A stretch of DNA of 64,000 bases from an uncultured Candidatus Saccharibacteria bacterium. Its GTDB lineage: Bacteria; Patescibacteriota; Saccharimonadia; Saccharimonadales; JALRHH01. Below the pieces are notes generated by a model that worked only from the letters and a program-made list of their open reading frames with translations, had not been told where the DNA came from and did no database searches. Shown in pieces: positions 1-38,241 of this stretch (the stretch's first letter is position 1; every line of letters begins with the position of its first letter). The translations under genes were made by a program, and so were the position numbers. Where the stretch lies: the NCBI GenBank assembly GCA_964474995.1, contig CAYYUY010000002.1:35755-99754 (forward strand), in the 5' to 3' direction.

Positions 1-59
1 CTGTTACGTCAAAGCTCAAGGTCAAACACCACACCAACTTTGAAATCACCCACCATGAT

Positions 60-698
60 ATGTTTGGCATGATGTTTGAAAACGGCAAGTTTACTGGTAT
101 GGGCATACCTCAAAAGAGTGCCACTGCCAACCAGATTGATAAGCGTTTTCTTAGTAATGCTCCTGCTAACCGTATTGACGCTTTAGACTTATGGATTGAT
201 AGCCCACGCCGTGCAATTATAGGCAAAGCAATTATTGAGGAAGCAATTAAACTATTCTTTAAGCTGACAAAAAACAGGGACAATATACGGCTGTTGGCTA
301 GGGCAAACAAAGCAGCAGCAGAGTATGCAGGGACAGCTTTTTCTGACTGCATACTAATTGCTTGGCTACCTGTAGAAATCCACCTGTATGAGCAACTGAA
401 AGAATATATGGATAGTAAAGGCAGCGCACGCTTTAACCGCAAAAGGAAAGATAACTTACTCAAGGACTACACGGTTTCAGAAGTAATTGAGCTACTTGAG
501 TTTTCAAAACAAATCAACAAGGCGGAGTATGACAGCCTGACAAAAATCCGCAAAATCCGCAATGATATTATCCATAACGGCTACGCTGCTACTTTTGAGG
601 AAGCTGGTGCAGCCTTGAGCTTGCTAGAGAGCATTATTAAATCAAAGACTGGTCACACTTTAGCCCTGAATACGGGTATATCAATGAACCTGTTTTGA
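60..698 (+). CDS. HEPN-like protein (Swt1-like Rx4H motif); possibly 5'-truncated by the window edge
   Basis: C-terminal IRKIRNDIIHNG contains R-N-x3-H (codons 558-575), the HEPN RNase signature. The reading frame stays open upstream to position 3, so the true start may lie outside the window. Confidence 0.45.
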   Translation: MFGMMFENGKFTGMGIPQKSATANQIDKRFLSNAPANRIDALDLWIDSPRRAIIGKAIIEEAIKLFFKLTKNRDNIRLLARANKAAAEYAGTAFSDCILIAWLPVEIHLYEQLKEYMDSKGSARFNRKRKDNLLKDYTVSEVIELLEFSKQINKAEYDSLTKIRKIRNDIIHNGYAATFEEAGAALSLLESIIKSKTGHTLALNTGISMNLF

Positions 699-897
699 AC
701 CAGCCGACATTAACCAATAGCCCTTGCCGTGTCCTGAAACTTAACTAACACTTGTAGGAAAACTGTCAGGTAATTTCTGTACAAAATGAACGTGTTTTCA
801 AAGCCGTTTTATATCTGTTAACGGTGAAAAGTGGTGTCCGGAAACTCATGCCCTGAATTGGGGAGTTTTCCGACGAAAATGTACGTCTCCAGAAATG

Positions 898-1464
898 CTA
901 CTTCGTTTGTACTATTGCTCGGTCACTGTCTAGACCAGGCTTCCAAATAAGGTATTGATGTCCGTCTTCAACAGGTACTTGGAATACAACCTTGCCAGTC
1001 GCCTTACCGCCAGTAACAATGTCCCCAGAATTGAGCAAGTCGGTTATTGAGGAAACAATTGTGCTATCCAAAACTTGCCCACCTGCTGTCTGTATGCGGA
1101 AATCAGCCTCATTGTATGGCTTAGTGCTATCACTGGTGTTTTCTAGCGTTACATCAGCCACAACGTAAGTCTTCCCACTATCAGCTGTATCAAACTCGCC
1201 CAGGCTGGTAGCGTACTTCACGTTGGTAACGGTAAGTTTAACGCCACCAACTGTGCCACTTTCATTAGGCAACAATTCAACATCTTTTGGCTGTTTGTCA
1301 GCCCTGTCAGTAAACCTGTATGTCTTAGTGGTACTTGTTGCCGTTTTTGAGCCAGAAGCCCCGTTCTGCGTACCCTTATTACCCCCAGCTGCCCCACCAA
1401 TTACGACAAGTACAATAATGACTAAAATTACGGTCAATATCTTGTGCTTCTTAAACCAACCCAT
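898..1464 (-). CDS. DUF4352-like membrane-anchored protein
   Basis: N-terminal TM helix and Ser/Thr/Gly linker. The beta-rich domain with GKTYVVADVTLENTSDSTKPYNEADFRIQ...GKVVFQVP is typical of DUF4352. The start was moved to the second ATG (1464), which is preceded by GGAGAG. Confidence 0.55.
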   Translation of the reverse strand: MGWFKKHKILTVILVIIVLVVIGGAAGGNKGTQNGASGSKTATSTTKTYRFTDRADKQPKDVELLPNESGTVGGVKLTVTNVKYATSLGEFDTADSGKTYVVADVTLENTSDSTKPYNEADFRIQTAGGQVLDSTIVSSITDLLNSGDIVTGGKATGKVVFQVPVEDGHQYLIWKPGLDSDRAIVQTK

Positions 1465-1520
1465 ACTTAAACTCTCCATTTAATTTATATCTGTTAATGT
1501 AGCACACTTAATGCCAAAAC

Positions 1521-1553
1521 ATAAACAGACAGTTTATGTAACTAACTGTTTAT
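1521..1553. promoter_or_regulatory. Candidate operator in the divergent DUF4352/XRE intergenic region
   Basis: ATAAACAG (1521-1528) and its exact reverse complement CTGTTTAT (1546-1553), with an inner GTTTAT (1532-1537), sit just upstream of the XRE gene. Confidence 0.3.
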
Positions 1554-1571
1554 TATTTCTACTCTAGGTGC

Positions 1572-1799
1572 ATGAGTAATGCCCAAGAACAAAAACTTAT
1601 GAAAGACTTTGGTAAACGAGTTGCCGAAGTGCGCAAAAGTAGAGGTATAACCCAACAGGATTTAGCCGAACGTGTCAGTATGAGTGTGGTTGCAATTGCC
1701 TACATTGAAACGGGTAAGCGTTGGGCTAGGCTTGGTACGCTACACAAGATAGCCAAAGTGCTAAAAGTTGACATTCAAGATTTATTCAAGGGGTTATAA
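1572..1799 (+). CDS. XRE-family helix-turn-helix transcriptional regulator
   Basis: 75 aa. RKSRGITQQDLAERVSMSVVAIAYIETGKR is a canonical Cro/CI-type HTH. Confidence 0.8.
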   Translation: MSNAQEQKLMKDFGKRVAEVRKSRGITQQDLAERVSMSVVAIAYIETGKRWARLGTLHKIAKVLKVDIQDLFKGL

Positions 1800-1823
1800 G
1801 TCACCACTTGCTATTATGTGTAA

Positions 1824-2591
1824 GTGAACTTGCCGCTTTGCCCACATTGCCATAAGCAACTACCTAAGTTCCCCACACGCAAGGGGCAATGCCCCAAATG
1901 CAAACACGCCTATCTGGTTAGAACTGACCCTGAAACCAAAGAAAAAGTCGTAGTTGACGCAACTGGAGCTAAGCGAATTGAAAAGATATACCACAGGCAA
2001 GCAATTGAGAACGAGCTTGAACGAAACTTGAGCTGGGGTGTTGATGATTTTGACGGGCTTTATAAAACCGTTGAGAGCCAACTAACCGAAAAATGGATAC
2101 CAAAGTTTGGGCGTGGACCAGGTAAAGGTGACGTGCTTTGGGGGGTTGCTAGTCAATTAAATCTGCAAGCAGCTAAAGTATCTGATTTTAGCGCCATGTC
2201 TCGTATTTACTTTAATCAAGCCCTATATATACATCAGCTTGGCAAGGACTGTAACTACCTACTTAAACCTGCTAATGAAATGACCTTACGGGAACTGGCA
2301 AAAAGTGGTTTCAAAGAAGTGAGCATACTCGCTAACAAGGCGTGTACGGAGTGTGCCAAATTAGACGGCAAGAAGTTCACAATTCAGGAAGCGCTTGAGC
2401 AACAGATACTACCAAATACGCATTGTACTTTCAAACTTGAAGATTCTGCACCAACAGGCTGGTGTAGGTGCTTATATCAGGCACTGCCAGTAGACTTTAG
2501 TACAGAAGATTTTACCCAGACAGTTAGCCCTGCCCAACCACAGCCTACCCAAAAACAAGGATTTTTTAGCCGTTTCAAAAGGCACGTATAA
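1824..2591 (+). CDS. Zinc-ribbon protein with a C-terminal CxxC...HC...CRC motif (Mu F / SPP1 gp7-like?)
   Basis: GTG start. The N-terminus CPHCHK...CPKCKH is a zinc ribbon. The C-terminus CTECAKLDGKKF...PNTHCTF...WCRC resembles the conserved end of phage Mu F-like minor head proteins. This match is from memory and is weak. Confidence 0.4.
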   Translation: MNLPLCPHCHKQLPKFPTRKGQCPKCKHAYLVRTDPETKEKVVVDATGAKRIEKIYHRQAIENELERNLSWGVDDFDGLYKTVESQLTEKWIPKFGRGPGKGDVLWGVASQLNLQAAKVSDFSAMSRIYFNQALYIHQLGKDCNYLLKPANEMTLRELAKSGFKEVSILANKACTECAKLDGKKFTIQEALEQQILPNTHCTFKLEDSAPTGWCRCLYQALPVDFSTEDFTQTVSPAQPQPTQKQGFFSRFKRHV

Positions 2592-2632
2592 TACCAACCT
2601 GTTAGTATCTTAGTTATGGTATGGATATGTAA

Positions 2633-3346
2633 ATGAAAGTTAGGCTACCAAAACGCCTTAAAGACGGCAGACCTATTGACCCCGAAACTGCAAAAGCTGT
2701 ACGCAAGATACAAGATGACGCAGCTCTGAATAGTGGTAGCAAATACCGTCTTCATGTCTATCACGTATTCAATGACCCAGATTTTGACAAAGATGTCCGA
2801 GAAATACGTAAGTTGTTAGAAAGCTTCTACTACAAAGACATTTCCCTAAATCCAGACTCTGACCACCTACTAAAAGAACACAAACAAGCATTGTTTAATT
2901 TTGCAGCCAGATATTGCATTGACCCAGAGGACCTGCGAACTTATGCAGACGGGCTTTATGATGAGGGTGCAGGTTACGGCTCTGACATTGATGAGTTTGG
3001 CGGTCTTATGGAAACAGGCAGGTACGGATTGGTTTACAAAATTGGACCAAAAACTACATTGGAGCAGATACAAGCAGAGTGGAAAATGCACATTGAGTAC
3101 GCTAAACAAGACTACTACGGCAAGCGATCTGGTAAGAAGCGTTTATCAAAGTTTAACCATGAGCTGGTGTATGCGGTTTTCAAAGCACGGAACAAGCCAA
3201 AGCCTGATAGTTTCACCAAAATACAAAAGGATTATGAGCAAGGAACGCTAGCTGGCTATACAGGCAGCCGACATAAGTATGTAGTCAAAGATGACCTTGA
3301 ACGCTTTTATAACAAGCATAAACCCTATGTAAATACAGCCCTCTAA
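2633..3346 (+). CDS. Hypothetical protein (element 1 cargo)
   Basis: 237-aa ORF in a co-directional gene string with plausible composition. No motif recognised. Confidence 0.5.
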   Translation: MKVRLPKRLKDGRPIDPETAKAVRKIQDDAALNSGSKYRLHVYHVFNDPDFDKDVREIRKLLESFYYKDISLNPDSDHLLKEHKQALFNFAARYCIDPEDLRTYADGLYDEGAGYGSDIDEFGGLMETGRYGLVYKIGPKTTLEQIQAEWKMHIEYAKQDYYGKRSGKKRLSKFNHELVYAVFKARNKPKPDSFTKIQKDYEQGTLAGYTGSRHKYVVKDDLERFYNKHKPYVNTAL

Positions 3347-3419
3347 ACCCCTGCTTTACAAGGCCGTGTTATATGTTGTAATAGGTTCATAATGTAGTGT
3401 ACCCAGAAATGGAAACACT

Positions 3420-3683
3420 ATGAACAACATAAGTAACACACCAAATGAAGAAGCACACATCAGTGATTTTGGACTTGTTGCTGCTTTAGTTACTAGCGGA
3501 TTTGGCATACGGCGCTCCCAGCGTATCAATTCCCGTGTGTATTTCATTTTTGGTAAGACTAATGACCTGCAGAAGACCATAGATGACTACTGGGCTGGTT
3601 TGTTACAGGTCTATGCTCGGCAATACTTTGATAACACCAAAATGCTGAAAAGCCTTATCTATAGTGAGGGGCAAAAGCCATGA
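3420..3683 (+). CDS. Small hypothetical protein (DUF5659-like?)
   Basis: 87 aa. The pattern SDFGLVAALVTSGF...RVYFIFGKT resembles DUF5659, recalled from memory. Its stop overlaps the next start (ATGA). Confidence 0.4.
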   Translation: MNNISNTPNEEAHISDFGLVAALVTSGFGIRRSQRINSRVYFIFGKTNDLQKTIDDYWAGLLQVYARQYFDNTKMLKSLIYSEGQKP

Positions 3684-3925
3684 AGCTTACCCAGCCACAA
3701 ATCAATGAGTTTCAAACTCTCTATAAAGCCCGTTTTGGCACAGACATTGATTATGAAACAGCTGAGCTGGAAGCCACTCAATTAATCCGCTTGGTGAGCA
3801 TGATACAACCACGCAATAAGTTAAGTATAAAAATGGACATGGAACTTAATGACACACCGCTATCGGGTGAAGCCCATGTCTTGGAGCAAGCAGGATATGG
3901 CAAACCAGCACCAAAAAACAGTTAA
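3680..3925 (+). CDS. Small hypothetical protein
   Basis: 81 aa, ATGA-coupled to the upstream ORF. No motif recognised. Confidence 0.4.
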   Translation: MKLTQPQINEFQTLYKARFGTDIDYETAELEATQLIRLVSMIQPRNKLSIKMDMELNDTPLSGEAHVLEQAGYGKPAPKNS

Positions 3926-4403
3926 TGACCTGCTGGGCTTCTTTTACATAGCCTACAATCCAGTATTAGCTAAGATATTTGGACGTAATGAAGCCTTGCT
4001 ACTTGGATTGCTGCTTTATTGGCACGGAAGAGGTGATGACCCTGTGTGGATTTATAAAACCGCACAAGAGATTGAAGCCCAGACCGCCTTAACTCCTGAG
4101 CAGCAGAAGCTTGCTATTAAGCACCTCAAGGCTACGCCGTATGTTCAACAAATACGTGCTGGCTATCAAGGCGTACGTTACTTCAAACTTGATTATGAAT
4201 TACTGCTTAAAGACTTACCTAGTTTGGTTAAAACACACCAACTAGATGAGTTAGTAGCCACTAACAAGAAAGTGTTTAACCCACGAACATTATTAAGAAG
4301 AATACATAACAACATACAAAACAAGAATCAAAACAACACTGGCTATAAAGCACGTGCAGGTCCTGAAAGTATTGGTGCAGTATTTGCACGTAAGAAATAT
4401 TAG
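3849..4403 (+). CDS. Winged-helix-like DNA-binding protein (possible replication/initiator function)
   Basis: FFYIAYNPVLAKIFGRNEALLLGLLLYWH...IYKTAQEIEAQTALTPEQQKLAIKHLK looks like the N-terminal wHTH of phage/plasmid replication organisers. The start is uncertain (ATG at 3849, 3876 or 3897). Confidence 0.35.
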   Translation: MTHRYRVKPMSWSKQDMANQHQKTVNDLLGFFYIAYNPVLAKIFGRNEALLLGLLLYWHGRGDDPVWIYKTAQEIEAQTALTPEQQKLAIKHLKATPYVQQIRAGYQGVRYFKLDYELLLKDLPSLVKTHQLDELVATNKKVFNPRTLLRRIHNNIQNKNQNNTGYKARAGPESIGAVFARKKY

Positions 4404-4488
4404 TAAAGCAGTATATAATTAATAACAGATACGGCAACGGCTTTTTGAAGCAGAGCTTTCTTAAAGCCGTCCGTGAAAAGGAAGCAAG

Positions 4489-6156
4489 ATGAAAGACCTT
4501 ACTCAACTTAGATTCGGATTATATGCACGGAAATCCGAGGAAAACGAAGACCGTCAAGTCCAGTCAATTCAAGACCAAAAGGATGAAATGCAAAAAATAG
4601 CAAAAGAACGTGGCTACACTATTGTTAAAGGCGCAATCTTTTGGGAATCCAAATCAGCCAAAGTGCCTGGCAAGCGTGAAGAGTTTGATAAGCTCATAGC
4701 ATTGGTGCAAGAGGGCAAAATTGACGGCATACTAAGCTGGAAAAGCAACCGTTTATCCCGAAATCCACTAGAGAGTGGCATTATTCAGCAATTGCTGTTT
4801 GATGAAAAACTTAAAGGCATTGTTACTAGTACTAAGACTTACTTGCCAGAAGACAATGCTCTCATTTTCAGCGTTGATTCCAGCATGGATAGTCAGTTTA
4901 GCCGTGATTTAATGGTAGTTGTTCGGCGTGGTATGCACTCAAAGGCTGCAAGGGGTTGGTTCCCAGGTGTACCGCCTATTGGGTATAGGAATCACTATGA
5001 TGAGTTCGGTACACCCAAGAAGACCATTGTGCTTGACCCAGACCGCTGGCACATAATACGCACTATGTGGGACATGATGTTGACAGGCACGTACACCGTG
5101 CCTGAAATTGCCCGTTGGGCAGAGAAAAATGGCTTACGGAGCATTAAGCGCAAGAAAAGTGGTAACAAGCCCATGTCCGTGCCTACTGTTTACGCTATGT
5201 TCCACAATCCGTTTTACGTAGGCTACCTGCGGTTCGGTGGTAAAGTACTTAAAGGTGAGCATGAGCCTATTGTTACGCAAAAGGAGTTTGACCAGGTGCA
5301 GACACTCATTAAACGCTACAATCAAGGCAGACCCGAAGTTAATGATAAGCCTGACCCATTTCCTTACAGAAACATCATTAAGTGCGGTGAGTGTGGCTGT
5401 GCCATAACCTACAGCACAGTTGAGAAGACCTATAAAGACGGCTCTACGCAGCTATTTGAGTATTGCTACTGCACCAGACGACGCAAAGACTACAAGTGTT
5501 CACAGAGCAAAACTATCAAGCCCCAACAGCTTACACGGCTTATACGGGCTGAGCTGGACAAGTACACTATCTTGCCAGAGTTCTTTGAGTGGGCTTGTGA
5601 GTACTTGAGCGAGTTCCACGACGAAGAAGTAGATAAGCAAGAAAAGATATTTGAAGCTCAAACCAAGACCATTAGTGACCTAGAATCCGAATTACGGGAA
5701 CTGGGACGTATGCGCTACAGGGGGCAAGTTGACGACGAGTTCTATGAAACTGAAAAGTTAATGCTGGAAAACAAGCTGACTGTATTACGTGGCGAGTTCA
5801 ACAAACAAGAAGAACACAACAAAGAACTACGCAAACTGTGTGATAAATACTTCAACTTTGCCCGTTATGCCCGTGAAGACTTTGAGAGCCAGGAAGATGA
5901 AAAGCGCCGTGAAGTGCTTTCGTTGGCAGGTCAAAACCTACTGTACGAAGACGGACAACTCCTGTTTGAGCCAATAAAATACCTATCACCATTAGTTGAA
6001 AAGTATCCTGAGCTAGAAAAGCAATATCTTAGCGTCCAAACCCAGCCAGAACAGATGAAAAAGGACGCCGTAGCGTCCATAATTCAAACGTGGTACACCG
6101 GGCTGGATTCGAACCAGCGACCCTCTGTTCCGAAGACAGATGCTCTAATCCACTGA
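4489..6156 (+). CDS. Large serine recombinase (integrase) LSR1
   Basis: Resolvase catalytic domain (LYARKSEENEDRQVQSIQDQ, SWKSNRLSRN), recombinase domain, Cys-rich zinc ribbon (CGECGCAITYS) and coiled-coil region. The last 22 codons are antisense to tRNA-Arg. Confidence 0.85.
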   Translation: MKDLTQLRFGLYARKSEENEDRQVQSIQDQKDEMQKIAKERGYTIVKGAIFWESKSAKVPGKREEFDKLIALVQEGKIDGILSWKSNRLSRNPLESGIIQQLLFDEKLKGIVTSTKTYLPEDNALIFSVDSSMDSQFSRDLMVVVRRGMHSKAARGWFPGVPPIGYRNHYDEFGTPKKTIVLDPDRWHIIRTMWDMMLTGTYTVPEIARWAEKNGLRSIKRKKSGNKPMSVPTVYAMFHNPFYVGYLRFGGKVLKGEHEPIVTQKEFDQVQTLIKRYNQGRPEVNDKPDPFPYRNIIKCGECGCAITYSTVEKTYKDGSTQLFEYCYCTRRRKDYKCSQSKTIKPQQLTRLIRAELDKYTILPEFFEWACEYLSEFHDEEVDKQEKIFEAQTKTISDLESELRELGRMRYRGQVDDEFYETEKLMLENKLTVLRGEFNKQEEHNKELRKLCDKYFNFARYAREDFESQEDEKRREVLSLAGQNLLYEDGQLLFEPIKYLSPLVEKYPELEKQYLSVQTQPEQMKKDAVASIIQTWYTGLDSNQRPSVPKTDALIH

Positions 6157-6167
6157 GCTACCGGTGC
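6091..6167 (-). tRNA. tRNA-Arg(TCG), CCA encoded
   Basis: Hand-folded cloverleaf: GCACCGG/TA/GCTC-AGTGGATTA-GAGC/A/TCTGT-CTTCGGA-ACAGA/GGGTC/GCTGG-TTCGAAT-CCAGC/CCGGTGT/A/CCA. The terminal pair is G1-U72. Confidence 0.85.
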
Positions 6168-6270
6168 GCATTATGTATATCTTAGTTATGAAAGTACTTA
6201 CCTTTTATCATCGTCACTGGCATGACAGTGTCTTTGAGCATCAGTTCTCTTATTTCTGCAGCAAGCTGCG

Positions 6271-6289
6271 TCCACTGAGCTACCGGTGC
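6271..6289. repeat. Orphan copy of the first 19 nt of tRNA-Arg(TCG) (identical to 6149-6167), 122 bp upstream of the gene
   Basis: TCCACTGAGCTACCGGTGC occurs at 6149-6167 (inside the tRNA) and at 6271-6289. The orphan copy is abutted by TGCAGCAAGCTGC (6257-6269). Confidence 0.9.
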
Positions 6290-10705: not shown

Positions 10706-12226
10706 ATGAATACAACAAACGAGAAGATTGGTCTATTAATTTATCAGTTACGACAAGAAAGGGGCCTCACGCAGGCTCAGTTCGCGCGTAAACTTGGCAC
10801 CAGCCAGTCTGCGGTCAACCGAATCGAGCACGGCAAACAAAACCTCAGCCTCGAGACACTTGGGCGTATCAGCGATGTTCTCAAGAAGCCGTTGATCTCT
10901 ATCAATGGTGGTGCGATCAATCTCCGTATTGAAGGTGGTCAAGAACTGCACGGTAGTATTGAAACCAAAGTTTCCAAGAATGCTGCTGTCTGTTTGTTGT
11001 TTGCAGCCCTCCTTAATAAAGGCACCACTCGTTTCAAGCGTATGCCACGCATCGAAGAGGTTTACCGTATCATCGAGGTCCTAGTCAGCATCGGTGTCGT
11101 GGTGAAGTGGCTTCCTGGTAACGATCTCGAGATCAAACCACCAGCCATGCTTAACCTCGACAAAATGGATAAGAACGCTGCCCGCAAAACGCGTAGCGTG
11201 ATCATGATGTTTGGTCCACTCATGCACCTCTTTGACGACTTCAAGATCCCCTACGCTGGCGGTTGTAAGCTCGGTACACGTACCGTCCAACCACACTTGT
11301 ATGCACTCGAAGAATTCGGTGTTAACATTGTCGCCAAAACTGGTCACTACCACGTAACTGTCGACAAGAAACAACCCGAAGAGATCGTCCTCTATGAATC
11401 TGGTGATACCACTACCGAAAACGTCATCATGGCTGCCGCTCGTTATGACGGTGAAGTGACCATCAAGATGGCTAGCGCCAACTACATGGTTCAGGACCTC
11501 TGTATTTTCCTCAAGAAACTCGGTGTGAAAATCGAAGGCATCGGCACCAGCACACTCAAGGTTCGTGGCGTCAAAGAGATCAAAAAGAATGTGACTTATA
11601 GTCCAAGCGAAGACCCAATTGAGTCAATGACCTTCATTGCAGCTGCCGTGGCAACCAATTCAGAACTTACCGTTACGCGTTCACCAATTGAATTCCTCGA
11701 ACTTGAAATCCTCAAGTGCCGCAAGATGGGCCTCGTCGTTGATGTCTCTCCAAAATACAAAGCTGATAACGGTCACACCGACCTGGCGGACATCACCGTC
11801 CACAAACACAATGGAACACTCCGTGCACTGGAAGAAAAGATCTATGCCCGTCCATTCCCTGGTCTAAATATCGACAACTTGCCATATTTTGTACCAATCG
11901 CAGCAGTCGCCAAAGGCCGCACCCTAATCCACGACTGGGTCTACGAAGAACGCGCCTTGTATTACACCGAAATGCGTAAGCTCGGTGTCAACGTAACATT
12001 GGCCGATCCACATCGTGCGTATATTGACGGCCCAACCAAATGGGACGCTGCAGATATCGTCTGCCCTCCTGCCCTGCGCCCCGCAGTTTTACTACTTATT
12101 GGTATGCTTGCAGCCAATGGCACATCCATCCTCCGCAACATCTACTCAATCAATCGCGGCTACGAAGACCTCGCTGAACGCCTCAACGCCATTGGTGCCA
12201 ACATCAATGTTATGCACGAACTCTAA
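10706..12226 (+). CDS. murA: MurA-like UDP-GlcNAc 1-carboxyvinyltransferase with N-terminal XRE HTH domain (fusion)
   Basis: Residues 1-60 are an HTH (LRQERGLTQAQFARKLGTSQSAVNRIEHGKQ). The rest is colinear with MurA. It retains KNAA (Lys22 equivalent), GGCKLGTR (catalytic Cys115 equivalent), NIDNLP (Asp305 equivalent) and RGYEDL. The start was set at MNTTNEK, and the 36-codon upstream extension was rejected. Confidence 0.75.
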   Translation: MNTTNEKIGLLIYQLRQERGLTQAQFARKLGTSQSAVNRIEHGKQNLSLETLGRISDVLKKPLISINGGAINLRIEGGQELHGSIETKVSKNAAVCLLFAALLNKGTTRFKRMPRIEEVYRIIEVLVSIGVVVKWLPGNDLEIKPPAMLNLDKMDKNAARKTRSVIMMFGPLMHLFDDFKIPYAGGCKLGTRTVQPHLYALEEFGVNIVAKTGHYHVTVDKKQPEEIVLYESGDTTTENVIMAAARYDGEVTIKMASANYMVQDLCIFLKKLGVKIEGIGTSTLKVRGVKEIKKNVTYSPSEDPIESMTFIAAAVATNSELTVTRSPIEFLELEILKCRKMGLVVDVSPKYKADNGHTDLADITVHKHNGTLRALEEKIYARPFPGLNIDNLPYFVPIAAVAKGRTLIHDWVYEERALYYTEMRKLGVNVTLADPHRAYIDGPTKWDAADIVCPPALRPAVLLLIGMLAANGTSILRNIYSINRGYEDLAERLNAIGANINVMHEL

Positions 12227-12336
12227 CGAAGCGTATTGAGACTATTGGTCTCAAGCCCTGTTCGAAGCCAGACCAAAAACCCAATCGCCACAGCGAGTAG
12301 TACAACTAATATGATTGTTCGGTGCCATTCTTTCAT
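12223..12336 (-). CDS. 37-aa single-TM micro-protein, ATGA-coupled to the sortase stop (below the ORF-track cutoff)
   Basis: Hand translation gives MKEWHRTIILVVLLAVAIGFLVWLRTGLETNSLNTLR. Its ATG (12336-12334) overlaps the sortase TGA (12335-12333). Confidence 0.3.
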   Translation of the reverse strand: MKEWHRTIILVVLLAVAIGFLVWLRTGLETNSLNTLR

Positions 12337-12935
12337 CGGACTGTCTCCAGACTTGCTTGCACTACGAGCCGCTGTTTTGATGTCCACAGCGGCGTACAAG
12401 TGTATAACGTAAGTATTGAGTTGGCTGTCGGCTGCTCGATTGATACATCTTGCGGATCTACAACCTTGATAGCCGCTACTTTATAAGTGTAAGCCTTACC
12501 GTTCCAGTAAAGTCCGATCTCGTCACCCACCCGAACCTTATCAAGGTTATAGAACGGCGGCGTATTGTGATAGGTAAAACGATGACCAACAAGTACTGTG
12601 TTGCTCATTTTGTCCGGGCTACTGGACCGTGGCCGATGCCAAATACCTTTGTCGACAGTATAGACGCTCTCACCTTCGAGTACTTTTTCACGGACACCAA
12701 TTGACGGAATCACCAACGTATTATCAGCAGGAATATCTTCAGACCTTACTTGTTGCACAGTGGCCTTACGTGGGCTCGAAACGACCGGTGCATCATGGCG
12801 CACCCACCATGAAACCGCAGGTAATATCGGTAACAGTAGTATATATAAGGCCATCACCACAATAACTCCAGTCAGTACGTCGTTGAATGACTTGAGGGTG
12901 AGATATTTTCTGAACGCTGTGCGTAATTTGTGCAT
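12333..12935 (-). CDS. Sortase (catalytically intact)
   Basis: N-terminal TM. His in VLVGHRF, TLYTC Cys motif and downstream Arg (QRLVV) are all present. The start was set at MHKLRT, preceded by AGGAG. Confidence 0.8.
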   Translation of the reverse strand: MHKLRTAFRKYLTLKSFNDVLTGVIVVMALYILLLPILPAVSWWVRHDAPVVSSPRKATVQQVRSEDIPADNTLVIPSIGVREKVLEGESVYTVDKGIWHRPRSSSPDKMSNTVLVGHRFTYHNTPPFYNLDKVRVGDEIGLYWNGKAYTYKVAAIKVVDPQDVSIEQPTANSILTLYTCTPLWTSKQRLVVQASLETVR

Positions 12936-13163
12936 TATCTCCTCATAATACCCACATTTTGCATAAAAACACCCTGTAATATTACTTTTTTGCAAAAAGG
13001 AGAAAATCTGGCTTGCAAAAACGGATCAAGAGAGGTATTAAACTAAGTACAACAAACAAGTGAAATCCAAAACATTTCACATTGTGAGTCTTCCTAGGTG
13101 TGATGGAAAACGAGCGATTGCGAGTCGTATAGCGTGTAGTTAGATCAATGAAAGGATCCGTTT

Positions 13164-22726: not shown

Positions 22727-22802
22727 TTTTTAAATTTTAGACTCTTATACATAAGAGTAATGACCTCTGGTATTAATGTCAAGTATTTCGTTGTCATAAT
22801 AA

Positions 22803-22836
22803 CCAAACAAAAAACCAGTCACCAGGACTGGTTTTT
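22803..22836 (-). terminator. Rho-independent (bidirectional-looking) terminator
   Basis: AAAACCAGTC-ACCAG-GACTGGTTTT forms a 10-bp stem flanked by A- and T-runs. It separates the tRNA-His region from the WxL operon promoter. Confidence 0.65.
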
Positions 22837-22840
22837 TGTT

Positions 22841-22859
22841 TGGGGCGAGCTATGGGGAT
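22841..22859. repeat. Orphan copy of the tRNA-His 3' end (identical to 23013-23031)
   Basis: TGGGGCGAGCTATGGGGAT occurs at both positions, 172 bp apart in direct orientation. This is an att-scar-like arrangement. Confidence 0.9.
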
Positions 22860-23012
22860 CGCCTCGCCAGCAGAACAAAATGTTCTGCCTAGGCGACCCC
22901 AAGCACCTTCGGCGCTTCTGAGGCAAGGGTCCGGAATATGCCACTGGCATATTCGTTCAATCCCCACATAACAACCATATAAAAAACGCCACACAAGGTG
23001 ACGTTTTTTATA

Positions 23013-23090
23013 TGGGGCGAGCTATGGGGATTGAACCCACGACCTCCGGAACCACAACCCGGCGCTCTAACCAACTGAGCTAAGCCCGCC
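23013..23090 (-). tRNA. tRNA-His(GTG) with encoded G-1 and CCA
   Basis: Hand fold: G(-1)/GCGGGCT/TA/GCTC-AGTTGGTTA-GAGC/G/CCGGG-TTGTGGT-TCCGG/AGGTC/GTGGG-TTCAATC-CCCAT/AGCTCGC/C/CCA. The extra 5' G opposite C73 is the His identity element. Confidence 0.88.
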
Positions 23091-23185
23091 ATATTATCTT
23101 AAAATGTACGTTTTTCTGGACTTATAATCTAATCATGTTGGTTAGATCGCCAGGGCGCAGCCATTCAATTCTTGCAGCAAGCTGC

Positions 23186-23206
23186 ACCAACTGGGCTAAG
23201 TTCGCC
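23186..23206. repeat. Diverged orphan copy (18/21) of the tRNA-His 5' segment, 116 bp upstream of the gene
   Basis: ACCAACTGGGCTAAGTTCGCC versus ACCAACTGAGCTAAGCCCGCC (23070-23090). It is abutted by the same TGCAGCAAGCTGC 13-mer (23173-23185) as at 6257-6269. Confidence 0.8.
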
Positions 23207-23282: not shown

Positions 23283-23359
23283 TGGTGCCCCGGGCTGGAC
23301 TCGAACCAGCGACCTTAGGCTTAGAAGTCCTCTGCTCTATCCAGCTGAGCTACCAGGGC
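23283..23359 (-). tRNA. tRNA-Arg(TCT), CCA encoded, weak anticodon stem
   Basis: Hand fold: GCCCTGG/TA/GCTC-AGCTGGATA-GAGC/A/GAGGA-CTTCTAA-GCCTA/AGGTC/GCTGG-TTCGAGT-CCAGC/CCGGGGC/A/CCA. Pairs 27:43 and 31:39 are mismatched, leaving only 3 Watson-Crick pairs in the anticodon stem. Confidence 0.7.
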
Positions 23360-23460
23360 ATGCACCATCTCTCGAATGTTAAATCAGTACGACTTAATTG
23401 TACCAGTCTACCTTGATGGCACTGGAAGAGCATCTGCTTTCTTCATTTTGCCTAACGGCG

Positions 23461-23493
23461 CCAGCCAAGCTACCAGGGCATGCACCATCTCTC
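23461..23493. repeat. Orphan copy (31/33) of the tRNA-Arg(TCT) 5' segment plus 14 nt of its 5' flank, exactly 120 bp upstream
   Basis: CCAGCCAAGCTACCAGGGCATGCACCATCTCTC versus CCAGCTGAGCTACCAGGGCATGCACCATCTCTC at 23341-23373. Confidence 0.9.
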
Positions 23494-23544
23494 TGTACCT
23501 TGCGACAATTATACCGAAGTTCCGGCATTCCGTATAATAGCGCT

Positions 23545-24345
23545 ATGCAGAAAGGCGAATACATCCGCGACAGACTTCTACCAAGCTCAATTCAGGCTGC
23601 CTGTGATCGACAAGCAATCACGTACCAAGCCTTCTCGGATGATTGGGTATTGAAGCTTTCCAAAGGTGGGCGTATCTTCTGGGTTTTTGGCTACAAGTTT
23701 GATATCAATCCATCTGCTGTAAGCCTCATAGCACAAGATAAAGTTGCAACGTATCTTGTGCTGGCTGAACACAATATACCGGCCGTGCCGCACATTCTCG
23801 CACGGTCATTACCCGGTGAGTCAATCAACCGCGCAGGCCTCAAGGCCCAATTCACATCCGATATTGTTATCAAGCCGCTGAGTGGTACCGGCGGTCGAGA
23901 TGTCACGCGTTACGCCGATATAACAGAGGCGCTGACTGTTATTGAAGCTAGTAATGAGCCTGCATGGGCTGTTTCACCATATCTAAATATTGAACAAGAA
24001 ACCCGGTGCATTGTCCTGGATGGCGACACTATTCTGGCGTATGAAAAACAGCAACCAGAAATCATAAATGGACTTAAGTTCTTCAACCTCAGCCACGGCG
24101 CAATTGCAGTCGACGTTGCCACCGAAGCATTAGCAACCGAGGTTCAACAGCTTGCCAGAGATACCTGCAAACAACTTGGCCTGCGACTAGCGGCTGTTGA
24201 TATCGTGACACTAACGGATGGCACACGACTTGTGCTCGAAGTAAATGATGGCTTTTCTATGGAATATTACGCTCGGCAATCCGAACAAAATAAAAATCGT
24301 GCCATATCTTTATATGACACGATTGTTGCCGCAATGTTTGCATAA
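23545..24345 (+). CDS. ATP-grasp family ligase (RimK/glutathione-synthetase-like)
   Basis: IVIKPLSGTGGRDV, central and C-terminal ATP-grasp blocks (LRLAAVDIV...LVLEVND). The start was set at MQKGEY. The 49 upstream codons cover the tRNA-fragment repeat. TATAAT lies 7 nt upstream of the ATG, so the transcript may be leaderless. Confidence 0.65.
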   Translation: MQKGEYIRDRLLPSSIQAACDRQAITYQAFSDDWVLKLSKGGRIFWVFGYKFDINPSAVSLIAQDKVATYLVLAEHNIPAVPHILARSLPGESINRAGLKAQFTSDIVIKPLSGTGGRDVTRYADITEALTVIEASNEPAWAVSPYLNIEQETRCIVLDGDTILAYEKQQPEIINGLKFFNLSHGAIAVDVATEALATEVQQLARDTCKQLGLRLAAVDIVTLTDGTRLVLEVNDGFSMEYYARQSEQNKNRAISLYDTIVAAMFA

Positions 24346-28842: not shown

Positions 28843-28855
28843 TCGGGGTGAAAGG
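28843..28855. repeat. Distal att-like copy of the tRNA-Pro 3' end (13/13 with 38157-38169)
   Basis: An exact 13-mer is found twice in direct orientation, bracketing the island. Confidence 0.85.
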
Positions 28856-29021
28856 GCAATGCACTTCTGCGACTGTGCTCGAAACAAGTTTCTGCGTTCA
28901 GTCTTGAAGGTCAAACCATTCAACCTTCAATCTTTTGCTTAGGCAAAATCTTGGGTCGAAGGTTTGAGAACTTGAATCCAGGTCAAATAAAAAAGGCCTC
29001 CTGCGACGGTACTCAAAGAAG

Positions 29022-29465
29022 GTGCACCTAACTTCGGTGGCTCAGCGGCTGCACAAGCTGCTTGAAGTTGAGCCTCAGGCTGAGCTCATTGCAGACCCAG
29101 TTCGGGTGCGCCGCGTGGAGTGGCGGCTTGGTGAAGACGGAGTCAAGGAACTGATCGTCGATTACGAAGCTGGACTAGCGGTGCCCGAACTGCAGACCAA
29201 GTACGGACTGAGCAAGGGCTCGGTGCGGAAGCTGCTCAGTGATGCTGGAGTCAGCATGCGGCGACGTCCCCTGCCCGACTCGGTAGTTGCGCAGATCATC
29301 GAGTTGTACAAGACAGGGTTGTCGATCCGGGAGGTGGCGGCCAAGGTCGGAGTGCCGAAGACGACCGTTCAGAACTTGCTCGTGAAGTCGGGTGTGGTCA
29401 TGCGGCCGGCGGTTCGTTTTTCTCGTCGATCTGCTTCTGGGCATCAGCACGAGCTAGAGCGGTGA
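29022..29465 (+). CDS. Tandem helix-turn-helix protein, GC-rich (foreign-looking)
   Basis: GTG start. It has two internal repeats of the type (D/L)Y(E/K)xGL(A/S)(V/I)xE(L/V)xxK(Y/V)G(L/V)xKx(S/T)VxxLLxxxGVxMR. About 60% GC. The antisense ORFs are Arg-rich shadows. Confidence 0.55.
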   Translation: MHLTSVAQRLHKLLEVEPQAELIADPVRVRRVEWRLGEDGVKELIVDYEAGLAVPELQTKYGLSKGSVRKLLSDAGVSMRRRPLPDSVVAQIIELYKTGLSIREVAAKVGVPKTTVQNLLVKSGVVMRPAVRFSRRSASGHQHELER

Positions 29466-29888
29466 TGGCTTTGGCCAGTATGTGTAGGTCTACTGGTTTG
29501 CGTCTTATGCCAGTGACTTTGATGTTGTAGGTCTTGCGATGTGGCATTTGATAACAGATTAGCGCCCTTCCCTGATAGCAGGCTTATACAAGCCTAAACG
29601 CTATCCGTGGGGGTAAAACGACGTAGAATGTACTACATGTGGTGTATTAGCAATCAATCTTTGTTATAATCCAGATAGCCTAGAGAGATTTAGGCTACAG
29701 GAGGCGGAGTCTGTGTTGAGGTCTTACCAAAAACTAGTTCTATATCCTGTGGCCTCGTCTGCAGAAACAAACAATCCTACAAATTAGGGTGCAGGATAAA
29801 CCGCAGGTAGAAGACTGCTCGGTCAGTTTTCTACATGCCAATCCGGCCGCCGCACCACCAAGTACGGCTGGAAGAAAGAAAAGATCAA

Positions 29889-36130: not shown

Positions 36131-36132
36131 AT

Positions 36133-36372: not shown

Positions 36373-38241
36373 ATGCCAAAAGGTACAACCAATCGTCAAA
36401 AACGCAATAAAGTTCTCATAGATGAGACAGAACTTGCAAGCGTGCAAGAACAGACGTTCACCTCTGAATATCGTGATAAAGCCTTTGGCAATAGCGAGCG
36501 TAGTGTTAATGAGTTGCTAGACTACTTCTCTGCTACTACGCAGGGTACAAAAAAGATACTGCCTAAAGAAAAGCGCCGTTACGTTGTATACCTACGTAAG
36601 TCTACTGACGATGAGGCTAAGCAAGTACGTTCGCTAGATGACCAGCGTGCAGAGTGTTTACGATATGCAGCCAACGTACTAAAAGTTACTATCCGTGAAG
36701 AAGATATTTTAGTGGAAAGTGCCTCTGCTAAAACTTCTGGCAACCGTCCTATCTTTGACGCTATGTTGCAGGGATTCAGAACTGGTAAATATCAGGGGCT
36801 TATATCGTGGTCGCCTGACCGCATCTCTCGTAACATGAAAGAGGCTGGTGAGGTCATCGAGATGATTGACCATGAAGAAATACAAGACCTCGCCTTTGTG
36901 ACATACCAGTTTGATAACTCGCCAAACGGCAAAATGATGCTAGGCATTCTGTTTGCTACATCTAAGCAATACTCCGACAAACTAGCAGTAGATGTAAAAA
37001 GGGGTACTGTGGGTAACATCGTAGAGGGCAAGTATAACGGTGTACTAAAAAAGGGCTACTATGTTGATGCTGTAACTGGCTACTTTACACCTGATGAATA
37101 TAACTGGAACGTGTTACGCAAAGCGGTAGATATGAGGCTGTATGAGGGTAAGAGCAATACTGACATCGCAGACTTCTTGAACAGTGCTAAACTCACTGAA
37201 CGCAAGAACCAAGACGAACAGTCTAAGCTTGTAAAAGTTACTAAACAAATGGTAGGTAATATCTTTGAAGATTCATTCTACTGTGGGCTGTACAAATATG
37301 GTGACAACCTCGCAAATCTAGTAGACCTATATAACTTCAAGCCTCTTATAACAGCAGATGAATATATACAACTCAATGCTGATGTCGCAAAGGACTTTGG
37401 TAGAACTACGAGCGTAAAGACAAACCGCAATCAGCGGCTAGATTATGGCTTGCTGCACAACAAAGTCATTTGTGATTACTGTGATACTGCTATGCAATTT
37501 CAACATACGCCTATTAAGCGTGGTAAGAACGCTGGCAAGTGGGTGATTAGCTTCTATTGCCGCAATAGGGCTTGTTTGCGCCACAATTCAGCGGAGCAAA
37601 AGAGTTTGGGTGTCAAACTATCTAAAAGTATTCGTGGCAAGTACGTCTTAGCAGGCATTGAATGGCAGCTACGCCATCTCACTAAAAAGAGTGAGCAAGC
37701 ATATCGTATGCATATCAACAGTCTAGAGCAGCGTATTGCTGCCGATAGGAGCATTCTAAACCGCAAACTTGCCGAAGCTAAGCAGTCACTCAAGAATAAC
37801 GAACAGCAGTATGCACGATATCAGGAGTTTCAAGTTAACAGCCCTATTGACTACAAAAAGTATCACGAGGGCAAACTAGAGCAATACCAACAGCTGATAC
37901 ACCTAGACGAAGAAGCTATAACGGATAATAAAGCCGAACTGGCTAAACTTGACGTAGCACTGCCTACAGAGCAAGAGTTTTACGAACTCACACGTTCTAA
38001 GGTGTTAGATATGCTAAAAACAACAGACATCATGACTCTAGACACTATATGCAGTGAGTTTGTTACGAACCTACGTGCAGGCAATGACTTTACCTCTGTT
38101 ATAAAACTAAAACCACCATACGATAATATGGTGGAATTAGGTTCTGTAACTACTGGTCGGGGTGAAAGGACTCAAACCTTCGACCTCTCGGTCCCAAACC
38201 GAGCGCGCTATCAACTGCGCCACACCCCGATGGGCCTATGA
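36373..38241 (+). CDS. Large serine recombinase (integrase) LSR2, with ~65-aa N-terminal extension
   Basis: YVVYLRKSTDDEAKQVRSLDDQ (catalytic Ser), SWSPDRISRN, recombinase domain, Cys-rich zinc ribbon (CDYCDTAM...CRNRAC) and a long coiled coil. The last 29 codons are antisense to tRNA-Pro. The start was set at the ATG (36373) rather than the TTG (36346). Confidence 0.85.
   Translation: MPKGTTNRQKRNKVLIDETELASVQEQTFTSEYRDKAFGNSERSVNELLDYFSATTQGTKKILPKEKRRYVVYLRKSTDDEAKQVRSLDDQRAECLRYAANVLKVTIREEDILVESASAKTSGNRPIFDAMLQGFRTGKYQGLISWSPDRISRNMKEAGEVIEMIDHEEIQDLAFVTYQFDNSPNGKMMLGILFATSKQYSDKLAVDVKRGTVGNIVEGKYNGVLKKGYYVDAVTGYFTPDEYNWNVLRKAVDMRLYEGKSNTDIADFLNSAKLTERKNQDEQSKLVKVTKQMVGNIFEDSFYCGLYKYGDNLANLVDLYNFKPLITADEYIQLNADVAKDFGRTTSVKTNRNQRLDYGLLHNKVICDYCDTAMQFQHTPIKRGKNAGKWVISFYCRNRACLRHNSAEQKSLGVKLSKSIRGKYVLAGIEWQLRHLTKKSEQAYRMHINSLEQRIAADRSILNRKLAEAKQSLKNNEQQYARYQEFQVNSPIDYKKYHEGKLEQYQQLIHLDEEAITDNKAELAKLDVALPTEQEFYELTRSKVLDMLKTTDIMTLDTICSEFVTNLRAGNDFTSVIKLKPPYDNMVELGSVTTGRGERTQTFDLSVPNRARYQLRHTPMGL
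38154..38229 (-). tRNA. tRNA-Pro(TGG), CCA encoded
   Basis: Hand fold: CGGGGTG/TG/GCGC-AGTTGATA-GCGC/G/CTCGG-TTTGGGA-CCGAG/AGGTC/GAAGG-TTTGAGT-CCTTT/CACCCCG/A/CCA. It has an unusual A19 and U56. Confidence 0.85.

What the first reader, a model, noticed from the sequence alone, without database searches (positions are those of the whole stretch)
4489..6167. Second, independent case: the LSR1 3' end is antisense to the complete tRNA-Arg(TCG), with its stop codon inside the D-arm
LSR1's last 22 codons (WYTGLDSNQRPSVPKTDALIH) are the reverse complement of tRNA-Arg(TCG) from its CCA end to the D-loop. The TGA (6154-6156) lies inside the 19-nt segment that is duplicated at 6271-6289. The reading frame relative to the tRNA differs from LSR2, so peptide sequence is not what is conserved. 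What is shared is the architecture: an LSR gene that ends inside a tRNA. The tRNA has a G1-U72 terminal pair, as expected if its 5' and 3' parts have different origins. This fits an element that carries most or all of a replacement tRNA within its integrase gene.
Basis: partly seen in the sequence, partly recalled or inferred. Interest (0 to 1): 0.65.

Follow-up and report, generated by a model that had tools for sequence, protein, structure and literature searches.

The report
Serine integrase gene ending inside tRNA
A mobile element in a Saccharibacteria genome sits against a tRNA-Arg gene so that its serine-integrase gene runs across the insertion junction into the tRNA; it belongs to a large, apparently undescribed family of serine integrases that target tRNA 3' ends, but the element brings only the last few bases of the tRNA, not a replacement tRNA.

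Summary
ORF 4489-6156 (+) is an intact large serine recombinase (LSR1). Its last 22 codons are antisense to tRNA-Arg(TCG) 6091-6167 (-). The G1-U72 pair and the 19-nt repeat are also real.

Relatives that are 76-80% identical lose homology with LSR1 right after TGGTAC(ACCG), the antisense of the tRNA's ACCA end. Of 80 related loci, 56 have an LSR that ends antisense in a tRNA, covering 14 isotypes. Eight have a non-tRNA tail, W-x-x-[LIV]V-x-[DE]-V-R-T. The same tail sequence lies at the far ends of integrated elements, preceded by only 6-10 nt of tRNA 3' end.

So attP lies inside the LSR ORF, and the crossover falls in the last ~3-7 nt of the tRNA. The tRNA body is chromosomal, and LSR1's 18-20-residue tail is read-through into host DNA.

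The arm that the crossover detaches from the LSR gene carries TT(C/A)GAAC 5 bp further out than the tRNA T-loop TTCGAAC. This is the known attP/attB geometry of serine integrases. The LSR codons MKKDAVAS also encode, antisense, a covarying terminator for the tRNA.

The 19-nt repeat is a separate, unexplained feature. The left junction of element 1 lies off-window.

The parts
1..6096 (+). Integrated element 1 (partial; left end lies off-window). It carries a DUF4352/Sie-like gene (898-1479, -), an HTH repressor-like gene (1572-1799), DUF5659 (3420-3683), a replication-initiator O/DnaD-like gene (3849-4403) and LSR1.
   Evidence: G+C is 0.42-0.43 against about 0.49 in the flanking chromosome. 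Pfam and PHROGs hits. The same DUF5659 / DnaD-like / LSR module is found in L005 and L169. No far-end arm motif on the + strand anywhere in the element (1-4489; the two window-wide hits lie at 9902 and 42080).
4489..6156 (+). LSR1, a large serine recombinase ORF that spans attR. About 535-537 codons are element-encoded. The last 18-20 codons (GLDSNQRPSVPKTDALIH) are encoded by the antisense strand of the chromosomal tRNA.
   Evidence: The catalytic-region invariants Y12, R14, S16 are conserved. Homology breakpoint with L005. Family tails.
6091..6167 (-). tRNA-Arg(TCG), a hybrid gene. The body is chromosomal. The last ~3-7 nt (CCA, A73, possibly U72/G71) come from the element.
   Evidence: ARAGORN, Rfam 69.9 bits, G1-U72, attL/attR comparisons in relatives.
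6091..6100 (.). Junction zone of attR, TGGTACACCG. It holds the W-Y-T codons, which are the antisense of the tRNA ACCA end plus the acceptor 3' strand. The crossover is inferred within 6093-6097.
   Evidence: identity with L005 ends here. (the common core of attL/attR pairs ends at offset 6-7, rarely 10, and starts at offset 3 or later).
6108..6114 (.). TTCGAAC, the antisense of the tRNA T-loop, at offset 18 from the tRNA 3' end. Proposed zinc-ribbon-domain motif of the B' half-site. The corresponding motif in the P' arm sits at offset 23.
   Evidence: The 5-bp shift matches the attP/attB rule of PMC3783163.
6058..6078 (-). Intrinsic terminator for the tRNA, encoded antisense inside LSR1 codons K-K-D-A-V-A-S. 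The stem is GGACGC/GCGTCC (6063-6078) and the U-run is 6058-6062. It lies 12 nt after the CCA end and is supplied by the element.
   Evidence: Terminator scan. Helix conserved by covariation in relatives.
6149..6167 (.). First copy of the 19-nt direct repeat (tRNA positions 1-19). Not part of the LSR att site.
6271..6289 (.). Second copy of the 19-nt repeat, a 5' fragment of the tRNA 122 nt upstream of the tRNA 5' end, followed on the - strand by the hairpin GCAGCTTGCTGC (6257-6268). Origin unexplained and independent of LSR1.
   Evidence: The same motif lies next to tRNA-His (23173-23185).
28843..28855 (.). For comparison: attL core of element 2, TCGGGGTGAAAGG, the displaced 3' fragment of tRNA-Pro.
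38157..38169 (.). For comparison: attR core of element 2 inside tRNA-Pro and LSR2. It shows that this element too brings only the tRNA 3' end.

Best explanation
Element 1 is a small integrative element with a replication-initiator gene and an LSR. It is inserted at the extreme 3' end of the chromosomal tRNA-Arg(TCG) gene.

Its attachment site attP lies inside the 3' end of its own integrase ORF. In the free or unrecombined form, the ORF continues past W-Y-T into the P' arm, which encodes x-[LIV]V-x-[DE]-V-R-T. After attP x attB recombination, the P' arm goes to the far end of the element. The ORF is then joined to the antisense strand of the tRNA and runs on until the first in-frame stop. That stop is the TGA produced by the conserved D-arm sequence AGCTCA.

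The element supplies only the last few nucleotides of the tRNA (CCA, the discriminator, perhaps U72) and a new intrinsic terminator hidden antisense in the integrase codons. The tRNA body and its promoter are chromosomal. The 18-20-residue tail of LSR1 is therefore a by-product of integration.

Shown:
- the anatomy of the locus;
- the homology breakpoint;
- the family-wide pattern;
- the far-end P' arms in relatives;
- covariation in the terminator helix.

Inferred:
- the exact crossover dinucleotide;
- that the enzyme's zinc-ribbon domain reads the T-loop TTCGAAC motif;
- that LSR1 is still active.
For: 1. LSR1 and the 80%-identical LSR of L005 align up to TGGTACACCG and then diverge.
2. Of 80 related loci, 56 have an antisense tRNA at the LSR stop, covering 14 isotypes and always entered from the 3' end. 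Four more have tRNA-like tails. Eight have the W-x-x-[LIV]V.[DE]VRT tail.
3. The same P' sequence lies 5-10 kb upstream of tRNA-type LSRs, preceded by only the tRNA's last 6-10 nt. Examples are L006 3875, L034 927, L058 2678, L072 122, L081 5586 and L169 138.
4. The P' heptamer TT(C/A)GAAC starts at offset 23, and the tRNA T-loop TTCGAAC at offset 18. This is the 5-bp attP/attB shift of the zinc-ribbon motif described in PMC3783163.
5. In this window, element 2 shows both junctions, sharing a 13-nt core at 28843-28855 and 38157-38169. The LSR2 family has the same design.
6. L169's LSR (76% identical) overlaps a tRNA-Arg(TCT) that is orthologous to the free one in this window.
7. The W codon (TGG, antisense of CCA) is invariant in the 34 aligned family members and sits at the junction wherever the target tRNA gene encodes CCA; most members at tRNA genes without an encoded CCA lack it there.
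8. The antisense terminator shows 6 of 7 pairs with compensatory changes and a covariation score of 0.602 against 0.183 in shuffles (0 of 500 shuffles reached it).
Against: - The left junction of element 1 itself is off-window and could not be retrieved. For this locus the model rests on relatives.
- The crossover could be bracketed only to offsets 3-7. Symmetry analysis of attP-like sites gave no single centre.
- If U72 (offset 5) came from the element, the central dinucleotide would mismatch a C72 target. The origin of U72 is therefore unresolved.
- Chromosomal 'attP-type' tails (L005, L069, L079, L169) seem to be junctions of tandem arrays. That implies attP x resident-attR recombination, which canonical serine integrases do not perform.
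- There is no experimental evidence of excision or activity.
Confidence: 0.8

Rival explanations
1. The element carries most or all of the tRNA (and perhaps its promoter) inside or after its integrase gene. It recombined at the D-arm, and the 19-nt repeat is the att core. The chromosomal remainder of the tRNA would lie at the far left end.
For: There is an exact 19-nt direct repeat of tRNA positions 1-19, 122 nt upstream. G1-U72 is compatible with a chimeric tRNA. The left end is unseen, so the model cannot be excluded directly.
Against: - Homology with close relatives ends at the tRNA 3' end, not at the D-arm.
- Far-end junctions of relatives and of element 2 carry 6-13 nt of tRNA 3' end only.
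- 5'-fragment repeats occur at free tRNAs as often as at LSR-flanked ones: 5-6 of 82 against 4 of 51.
- 47 of 51 LSR-flanked tRNAs have no such repeat.
Confidence: 0.06
2. Add-on to the best explanation: the tail swap is functional. Replacing the native C-terminus (the P'-encoded x-LV-x-DVRT tail) with a tRNA-encoded tail changes integrase stability or activity. Integration would then switch the enzyme, as reported for Mx8 IntP and for integration-dependent immunity in mycobacteriophages.
For: attP lies inside the ORF in two unrelated LSR families of the same genome. [quoted passage not shown]
Against: - Tails after the junction range from 2 to 39 aa and depend only on where the tRNA antisense happens to have a stop.
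- The conserved 'peptide' motif of P' is explained at the DNA level by the TTCGAAC half-site motif.
- P'-encoded tails also vary greatly in length.
Confidence: 0.2
3. The LSR1 element is a fixed, immobile remnant and the overlap has no current biological meaning.
For: Decayed relatives exist: P0027 is a 389-aa remnant that lacks the catalytic domain and sits next to tRNA-Arg(GCG), and L005 has an LSR 3' remnant next to tRNA-Arg(TCT).
Against: LSR1 is full length with all three domains and the invariant catalytic-region residues. The element keeps its low G+C and its replication module.
Confidence: 0.12

Closest known systems
Phage serine integrases (A118/LI, phiC31, Bxb1 type large serine recombinases)
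   Same: Resolvase + Recombinase + zinc-ribbon architecture. Short att sites with little identity between attL and attR. A half-site motif placed 5 bp further from the centre in attP than in attB (PMC3783163).
   Different: The target is a tRNA gene 3' end. [quoted passage not shown] Identity to any integrase of an isolated phage or plasmid is 24% or less (best 23.8%).
Myxophage Mx8 IntP and SSV1-type integrases (attP inside the int gene)
   Same: The integrase ORF extends across attP, so integration rewrites (Mx8) or splits (SSV) the integrase C-terminus. The Mx8 target is a tRNA gene 3' end (the tRNA target is from my own knowledge; the ORF-across-attP point is from PMC4383910).
   Different: Those enzymes are tyrosine recombinases with a longer identity core. 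This one is a serine recombinase with a core of only a few nt.
Classical tRNA-targeting genomic islands and prophages (Islander-type, tyrosine integrases)
   Same: Integration at a tRNA gene with restoration of the gene by element-borne sequence. The integrase gene sits next to the tRNA. Tandem arrays form at the same tRNA.
   Different: The restored segment is only about 3-7 nt (up to 13-16 nt for element 2) instead of 15-60 nt, so Islander-style fragment searches would miss it. The catalytic family is different.
tRNA-dependent lysogeny (Fionnbharth and other mycobacteriophages, PMC10865867)
   Different: Here the tRNA is reconstructed at attR, and no separate element-borne tRNA is present in the visible 6.1 kb of element 1 or in element 2.

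Membership tests
Large serine recombinase / serine integrase | N-terminal resolvase catalytic domain with the catalytic serine | tested here: met
   PF00239 E = 2.5e-16. Y12, R14, K15, S16 are invariant in a 34-sequence family alignment.
Large serine recombinase / serine integrase | Recombinase domain plus zinc-ribbon domain C-terminal to the catalytic domain | tested here: met
   PF07508 E = 3.3e-14. PF13408 scores 26.1 bits against a cut-off of 25.3. The cysteines C299, C302, C328 and C337 are invariant.
Large serine recombinase / serine integrase | Short attP/attB sites; attL and attR share only a small core around a 2-bp crossover | tested here: inconclusive
   The common core of attL/attR pairs in relatives is 6-10 nt. 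The crossover dinucleotide itself was not pinned down. The att sites of element 1 itself are incomplete because the left end is off-window.
Large serine recombinase / serine integrase | Zinc-ribbon-domain DNA motif 5 bp closer to the centre in attB than in attP | tested here: met
   TTCGAAC starts at offset 18 in 23 tRNA arms. TT(C/A)GAAC starts at offset 23 in 16 P' arms. The rule comes from PMC3783163. Protein-DNA contact is inferred, not shown.
Large serine recombinase / serine integrase | Recombination directionality factor for excision | not tested
   No candidate was identified. The small ORFs 3420-3925 have no assigned function.
Integrases whose ORF spans attP (Mx8 IntP / SSV type) | attP lies within the integrase coding sequence, so integration changes or splits the protein | tested here: met
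   Unrecombined-type tails are continuous with the ORF (L005, L038, L041, L044, L069, L079). The matching P' arms lie at the far ends of integrated elements. For LSR1 itself this is inferred from relatives.
Integrases whose ORF spans attP (Mx8 IntP / SSV type) | Tyrosine recombinase catalytic domain | tested here: not met
   Only serine-recombinase domains were found. LSR1 works like this group but is not a member.
   Homology with relatives ends at the tRNA's last ~10 nt. No other tRNA lies in 1-6090 or in 28856-38153. Far-end fragments are 6-13 nt.
Classical tRNA-integrating island (Islander definition) | A full tRNA at one end, a displaced tRNA fragment at the other, and a tyrosine integrase inside | tested here: not met
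   The integrase is a serine recombinase. The displaced fragment is only 6-13 nt in relatives and in element 2. For element 1 the fragment is not testable because it is off-window.

The most novel reading that the evidence does not exclude
Patescibacteria harbour large clades of serine integrases specialised for tRNA genes. Their zinc-ribbon domain would read the near-universal T-loop sequence TTCGAAC, which lets the clade hop among at least 14 tRNA isotypes. The attP site, the tRNA's 3' end and a replacement tRNA terminator are all packed inside the last ~30 codons of the integrase ORF. New copies insert between a resident element and the tRNA, building tandem arrays, which implies attP x attR-like recombination that is unusual for serine integrases. 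U72 in the target tRNA-Arg would be either the element's footprint or the allele that makes a tRNA susceptible.
Probability: 0.55. Interest if true: 0.72.

Novelty: new variant of a known kind. Interest (0 to 1): 0.6.

Why it matters
- **Target range of serine integrases.** They are the main tools for inserting large DNA, and they are generally said not to use tRNA genes (PMC4383910, PMC7192596). A large natural family that targets the most conserved part of tRNA genes, with att sites readable directly from genomes, would change that picture. It could also offer integrases with near-universal landing sites.
- **Genome annotation.** Hundreds of database 'recombinase' proteins end in ...DSNLRP..ALSS-type peptides that are really tRNA antisense. 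Gene callers place ORFs over tRNA genes. Island finders that look for displaced tRNA fragments of 15 nt or more will miss these elements.
- **Patescibacteria biology.** For these small-genome bacteria, the finding identifies a main route of gene gain at tRNA loci.

Tried and rejected
- **Recovering the left junction of element 1.** All attempts failed:
  - Exact-protein look-ups of LSR1, P0001 and ORF 60-698 found nothing.
  - Look-ups of neighbouring genes returned only 1-2 kb Logan contigs that do not pass the window start.
  - A metagenome scan with the tRNA body found no match, and a scan with LSR1 found no relative.
- **Logan contigs on the lipase side.** Three of them (L001, L002, L004) stop at tRNA position 29. 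I considered this as a signal of element polymorphism and rejected it. Neither model predicts a branch at position 30.
- **Long direct repeats between the LSR-tRNA junction and upstream DNA in 52 loci.** Only chance-level 10-12-mers turned up, as expected for serine integrases. The P' arms were instead found through their conserved motif.
- **Palindrome-centre analysis of eight attP-like sites.** It gave two weak optima (offsets 5-6 and 10-11) and did not fix the crossover.
- **Search for a free viral form.** IMG/VR holds only two family members: L086 with a P'-type tail and L087 at tRNA-His. Circularity could not be checked.
- **Literature.** Nine searches found no description of this family.
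- **The 19-nt repeat as att core.** Rejected, because the same structure occurs at free tRNAs.
Full report
**1. The observation**

The window holds an ORF at 4489-6156 (+) of 555 aa. It matches the Pfam domains Resolvase, Recombinase and Zn_ribbon_recom, so it is a large serine recombinase, here called LSR1. ARAGORN places tRNA-Arg(TCG) at 6091-6167 on the minus strand. Rfam confirms it with 69.9 bits, the best of the five tRNAs in the window.

The last 21 codons plus the stop of LSR1 (WYTGLDSNQRPSVPKTDALIH*) occupy 6091-6156. They are exactly antisense to the tRNA from its CCA end into the D-arm. The TGA lies inside the 19-nt TCCACTGAGCTACCGGTGC (6149-6167), which recurs at 6271-6289. The acceptor stem is GCACCGG/CCGGTGT, so the terminal pair is G1-U72. 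Every factual statement in the finding is therefore correct.

**2. Context**

Positions 1-6000 have G+C of 0.42-0.43, against about 0.49 for the following chromosome. This stretch encodes:
- a DUF4352/Sie-like protein;
- an HTH repressor-like protein;
- DUF5659;
- a replication-initiator O/DnaD-like protein;
- LSR1.

This is a small integrative element whose left end lies off-window. The organism is a member of Saccharibacteria/Patescibacteria, judged from the sources of the closest proteins and loci. A second low-G+C island runs from about 28.9 to 38.2 kb. It ends with LSR2 (36346-38241) running through tRNA-Pro.

**3. The family pattern**

A search with LSR1 returned more than 100 homologues down to 40% identity. 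Nearly all end in peptides that are tRNA antisense in one fixed frame: W is the antisense of CCA, and D-S-N is the T-loop. An example is WYTRQDSNLRPLAPQANALSS.

I fetched 80 genome loci for the family and ran ARAGORN on each.
- In 56 of 80 loci a tRNA on the opposite strand overlaps the LSR stop.
- The tRNA is always entered from its 3' end.
- Fourteen isotypes are used (His 17, Asn 12, Arg 5, Trp 5, Ser 4 and others).
- Four more loci have tRNA-like tails at contig ends.

The number of residues after the junction varies from 2 to 39, with a median of 9. The tail is simply whatever the tRNA antisense encodes before its first stop.

As a control, among 80 IMG/VR loci only the two that belong to this family show the feature. 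None of the other 78 serine recombinases overlaps a tRNA.

**4. Where the junction is**

The 80%-identical LSR of L005 has no tRNA at its end. Its DNA aligns with the window up to TGGTACACCG (6091-6100) and then diverges.

Eight loci, including L005, have the same kind of alternative tail, W-x-x-[LIV]V-x-[DE]-V-R-T. The DNA that encodes this tail also lies 5-10 kb upstream of tRNA-type LSRs, that is, at the far end of integrated elements. There it is preceded by only the last 6-10 nt of the tRNA. Examples are L006 at 3875, L034 at 927, L058 at 2678, L072 at 122, L081 at 5586 and L169 at 138.

Hence attP lies inside the LSR ORF. The ORF up to W-x-x is the P arm, and the [LIV]V-x-DVRT region is the P' arm. 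Integration moves P' to the other end of the element and joins the ORF to the tRNA.

Comparing attL with attR in the same locus brackets the crossover. The common core ends at offset 6-7 (rarely 10) counted from the tRNA 3' end, and starts at offset 3 or later. The crossover therefore falls within about the last 3-7 nt of the tRNA. In the window this corresponds to 6093-6097.

**5. Independent support from this window and from close relatives**

Element 2 shows both junctions. TCGGGGTGAAAGG occurs at 28843-28855 and at 38157-38169, so LSR2's element also carries only the 3' end of tRNA-Pro. The LSR2 family has the same design in another frame. Its tails read GRGERTRTFDLTVPNRARYQLRHTP, and the alternative tails diverge right after G-R.

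The 76%-identical LSR of L169 overlaps a tRNA-Arg(TCT). That tRNA aligns along its whole length with the free tRNA-Arg(TCT) of this window (23283-23359), and similarity is lost on the 3' side at the junction. A tRNA-Gly(TCC) gene lies 1-3 kb beyond it on the 5' side in both genomes. The overlapped tRNA is therefore chromosomal.

**6. Half-site geometry**

In the tRNA arm, the T-loop antisense TTCGAAC begins at offset 18 (6108-6114 in the window). In P' arms, TT(C/A)GAAC begins at offset 23. For the Listeria serine integrase, the zinc-ribbon-domain motif of attB is shifted 5 bp toward the centre relative to attP (PMC3783163). The same 5-bp relation holds here.

This explains the 'conserved peptide' DVRT as a DNA constraint. 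It also suggests that the family recognises the near-universal T-loop sequence, which would account for its use of many tRNA isotypes. That recognition is inferred and has not been shown.

**7. A hidden terminator**

Twelve nt beyond the tRNA's CCA end on the minus strand lies GGACGC-uacg-GCGUCC followed by UUUUU (6078-6058). It is encoded antisense in LSR1 codons K-K-D-A-V-A-S.

In an ungapped alignment of 30 family members anchored on the W codon:
- the 7-bp helix has compensatory double changes in 6 pairs;
- 85.7% of cells are paired, against 58.9% in shuffles;
- the covariation score is 0.602, against 0.183 in shuffles (0 of 500 shuffles reach it) and at most 0.243 when the partners are slid.

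Those 30 were chosen mostly from the 29 of 49 members that passed a simple hairpin-plus-U test, so the percentages are inflated. Across all 47 distinct members, 71% of cells are paired, against 35-54% when slid.

The element thus brings a replacement terminator for the tRNA it separates from its native one. The free tRNA-Arg(TCT) site has a native hairpin at about the same distance.

**8. G1-U72**

All LSR-flanked tRNA-Arg genes have U72 (TGGTAC). These are the window, L006-L009, L021 and L169, plus L005's Arg(TCT), which still has a remnant LSR 3' end beside it. About 20 of 22 free tRNA-Arg genes have C72, including this window's own Arg(TCT). Fisher's exact test gives p = 2.7e-6.

U72 is at offset 5, inside the bracket for the crossover. 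Two readings remain:
- U72 was delivered by the element's P arm. This would require a mismatched central dinucleotide at a C72 target.
- U72 is a host allele that the W-Y subfamily requires.

I could not decide between them.

**9. The 19-nt repeat**

A copy of the first 18-21 nt of a tRNA lying 111-122 nt upstream of that tRNA (84 nt in L018), followed by a small hairpin and a promoter-like stretch, is also found at:
- this window's free tRNA-His and tRNA-Arg(TCT);
- free tRNA-Ser genes in L007 and L034;
- tRNA-Arg in L006 and tRNA-Pro in L018.

The frequency is the same at LSR-flanked tRNAs (4 of 51) and free tRNAs (5-6 of 82). The repeat is therefore not the att core of LSR1, and its origin is unexplained.

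**10. Tandem arrays**

Chromosomal 'unrecombined-type' tails are best read as junctions between an older LSR 3' end and the P' arm of a newer element that inserted next to the tRNA.
- L006 has three successive P' sites.
- L005 has P0002, a 1.2-kb remnant, an LSR 3' stub and then the tRNA.
- L169 starts inside such an ORF.
- L069 and L079 have duplicated P' arms.

This implies recombination of attP with a resident attR, which is unusual for serine integrases. It is inference only.

**11. Comparison with what is known**

The Islander paper states that serine-family integrases are not known to target tRNA genes, and that Mx8 and SSV integrases extend across attP (PMC4383910). Mageeney et al. found 14 of 297 serine integrases at t(m)RNA genes. 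They called this unreported and in need of experimental proof (PMC7192596).

No paper describing this family turned up in nine searches. No isolated phage or plasmid carries a relative above 24% identity.

LSR1 meets the tested domain and half-site-geometry criteria for a serine integrase (the crossover site was inconclusive and an RDF was not looked for); it works like the Mx8/SSV 'attP inside int' arrangement without being a member of that group. It does not fit the replacement-tRNA model (PMC10865867).

**12. Verdict**

This is a new variant of a known kind, with interest 0.6. The main gap is that the left junction of this particular element, and any excised form, were not seen.

Noticed in passing
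window 6271-6289 (tRNA-Arg TCG), 23176-23196 (tRNA-His), 23461-23493 (tRNA-Arg TCT); also L006, L007, L018, L034: The first 18-21 nt of a tRNA are duplicated 111-122 nt upstream of the tRNA (84 nt in L018). The copy is followed by a small hairpin (GCAGCTTGCTGC at both the Arg and His sites of this genome) and a promoter-like stretch. The feature occurs at free and LSR-flanked tRNAs alike. It looks like a promoter-replacement cassette or the scar of another element that targets the D-arm.
   Followed up: partly
window 22795-22859 and 22967-23031: The last 19 nt of tRNA-His plus a downstream terminator are duplicated 172 nt apart. The two terminator stems differ by compensatory changes. This may be the scar of a small element that integrated at the 3' end.
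   Followed up: no
window 28843-38169: Element 2 is about 9.3 kb and is bounded by the 13-nt repeat TCGGGGTGAAAGG. Its genes include an HTH_58 protein, an HNH endonuclease, a weak HEPN-like hit and LSR2. The native tRNA-Pro fragment at attL lacks an encoded CCA (TAC in place of TGG), so the element appears to add CCA to the gene.
   Followed up: partly
L005 3925 and 11600-12954; L006 1581, 2733, 3875; L069 11543 and 12539; L079 11549 and 14276; L169 1-206: There are tandem arrays of elements at a single tRNA. Older LSR genes carry hybrid tails made of their own P arm and the P' arm of a newer element. L005 keeps a ~60-nt LSR 3' stub (QMQKASGEAVLKTWYP plus hairpin) directly beside tRNA-Arg(TCT).
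   Followed up: partly
L001, L002, L004 (Logan contigs from three samples), corresponding to window 6139: Three independent assemblies of the lipase-side flank all stop at tRNA position 29 (…GAGCATC). This points to an assembly-graph branch at position 30. The cause is unknown.
   Followed up: no
window 23398-24345: An ATP-grasp (RimK-like) gene sits between tRNA-Arg(TCT) and tRNA-Gly(TCC). These two tRNAs are directly adjacent in L005, so there has been an insertion or deletion polymorphism inside the tRNA cluster.
   Followed up: no
L169 2760-6024: The 76%-identical element carries defence-type cargo: SMODS + SLATT (CBASS-like), a DNA methylase, an HNH nuclease and SRAP. These LSR elements therefore move defence genes in Saccharibacteria.
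   Followed up: no
protein database hits P0003-P0120 and P0122-P0240: Hundreds of deposited 'recombinase family protein' sequences end in tRNA-antisense peptides (…DSNLRPLAPQANALSS, …GRGERTRTFDLTVPNRARYQLRHTP). This apparent C-terminal motif is an artefact of gene calls that run into tRNA genes.
   Followed up: yes
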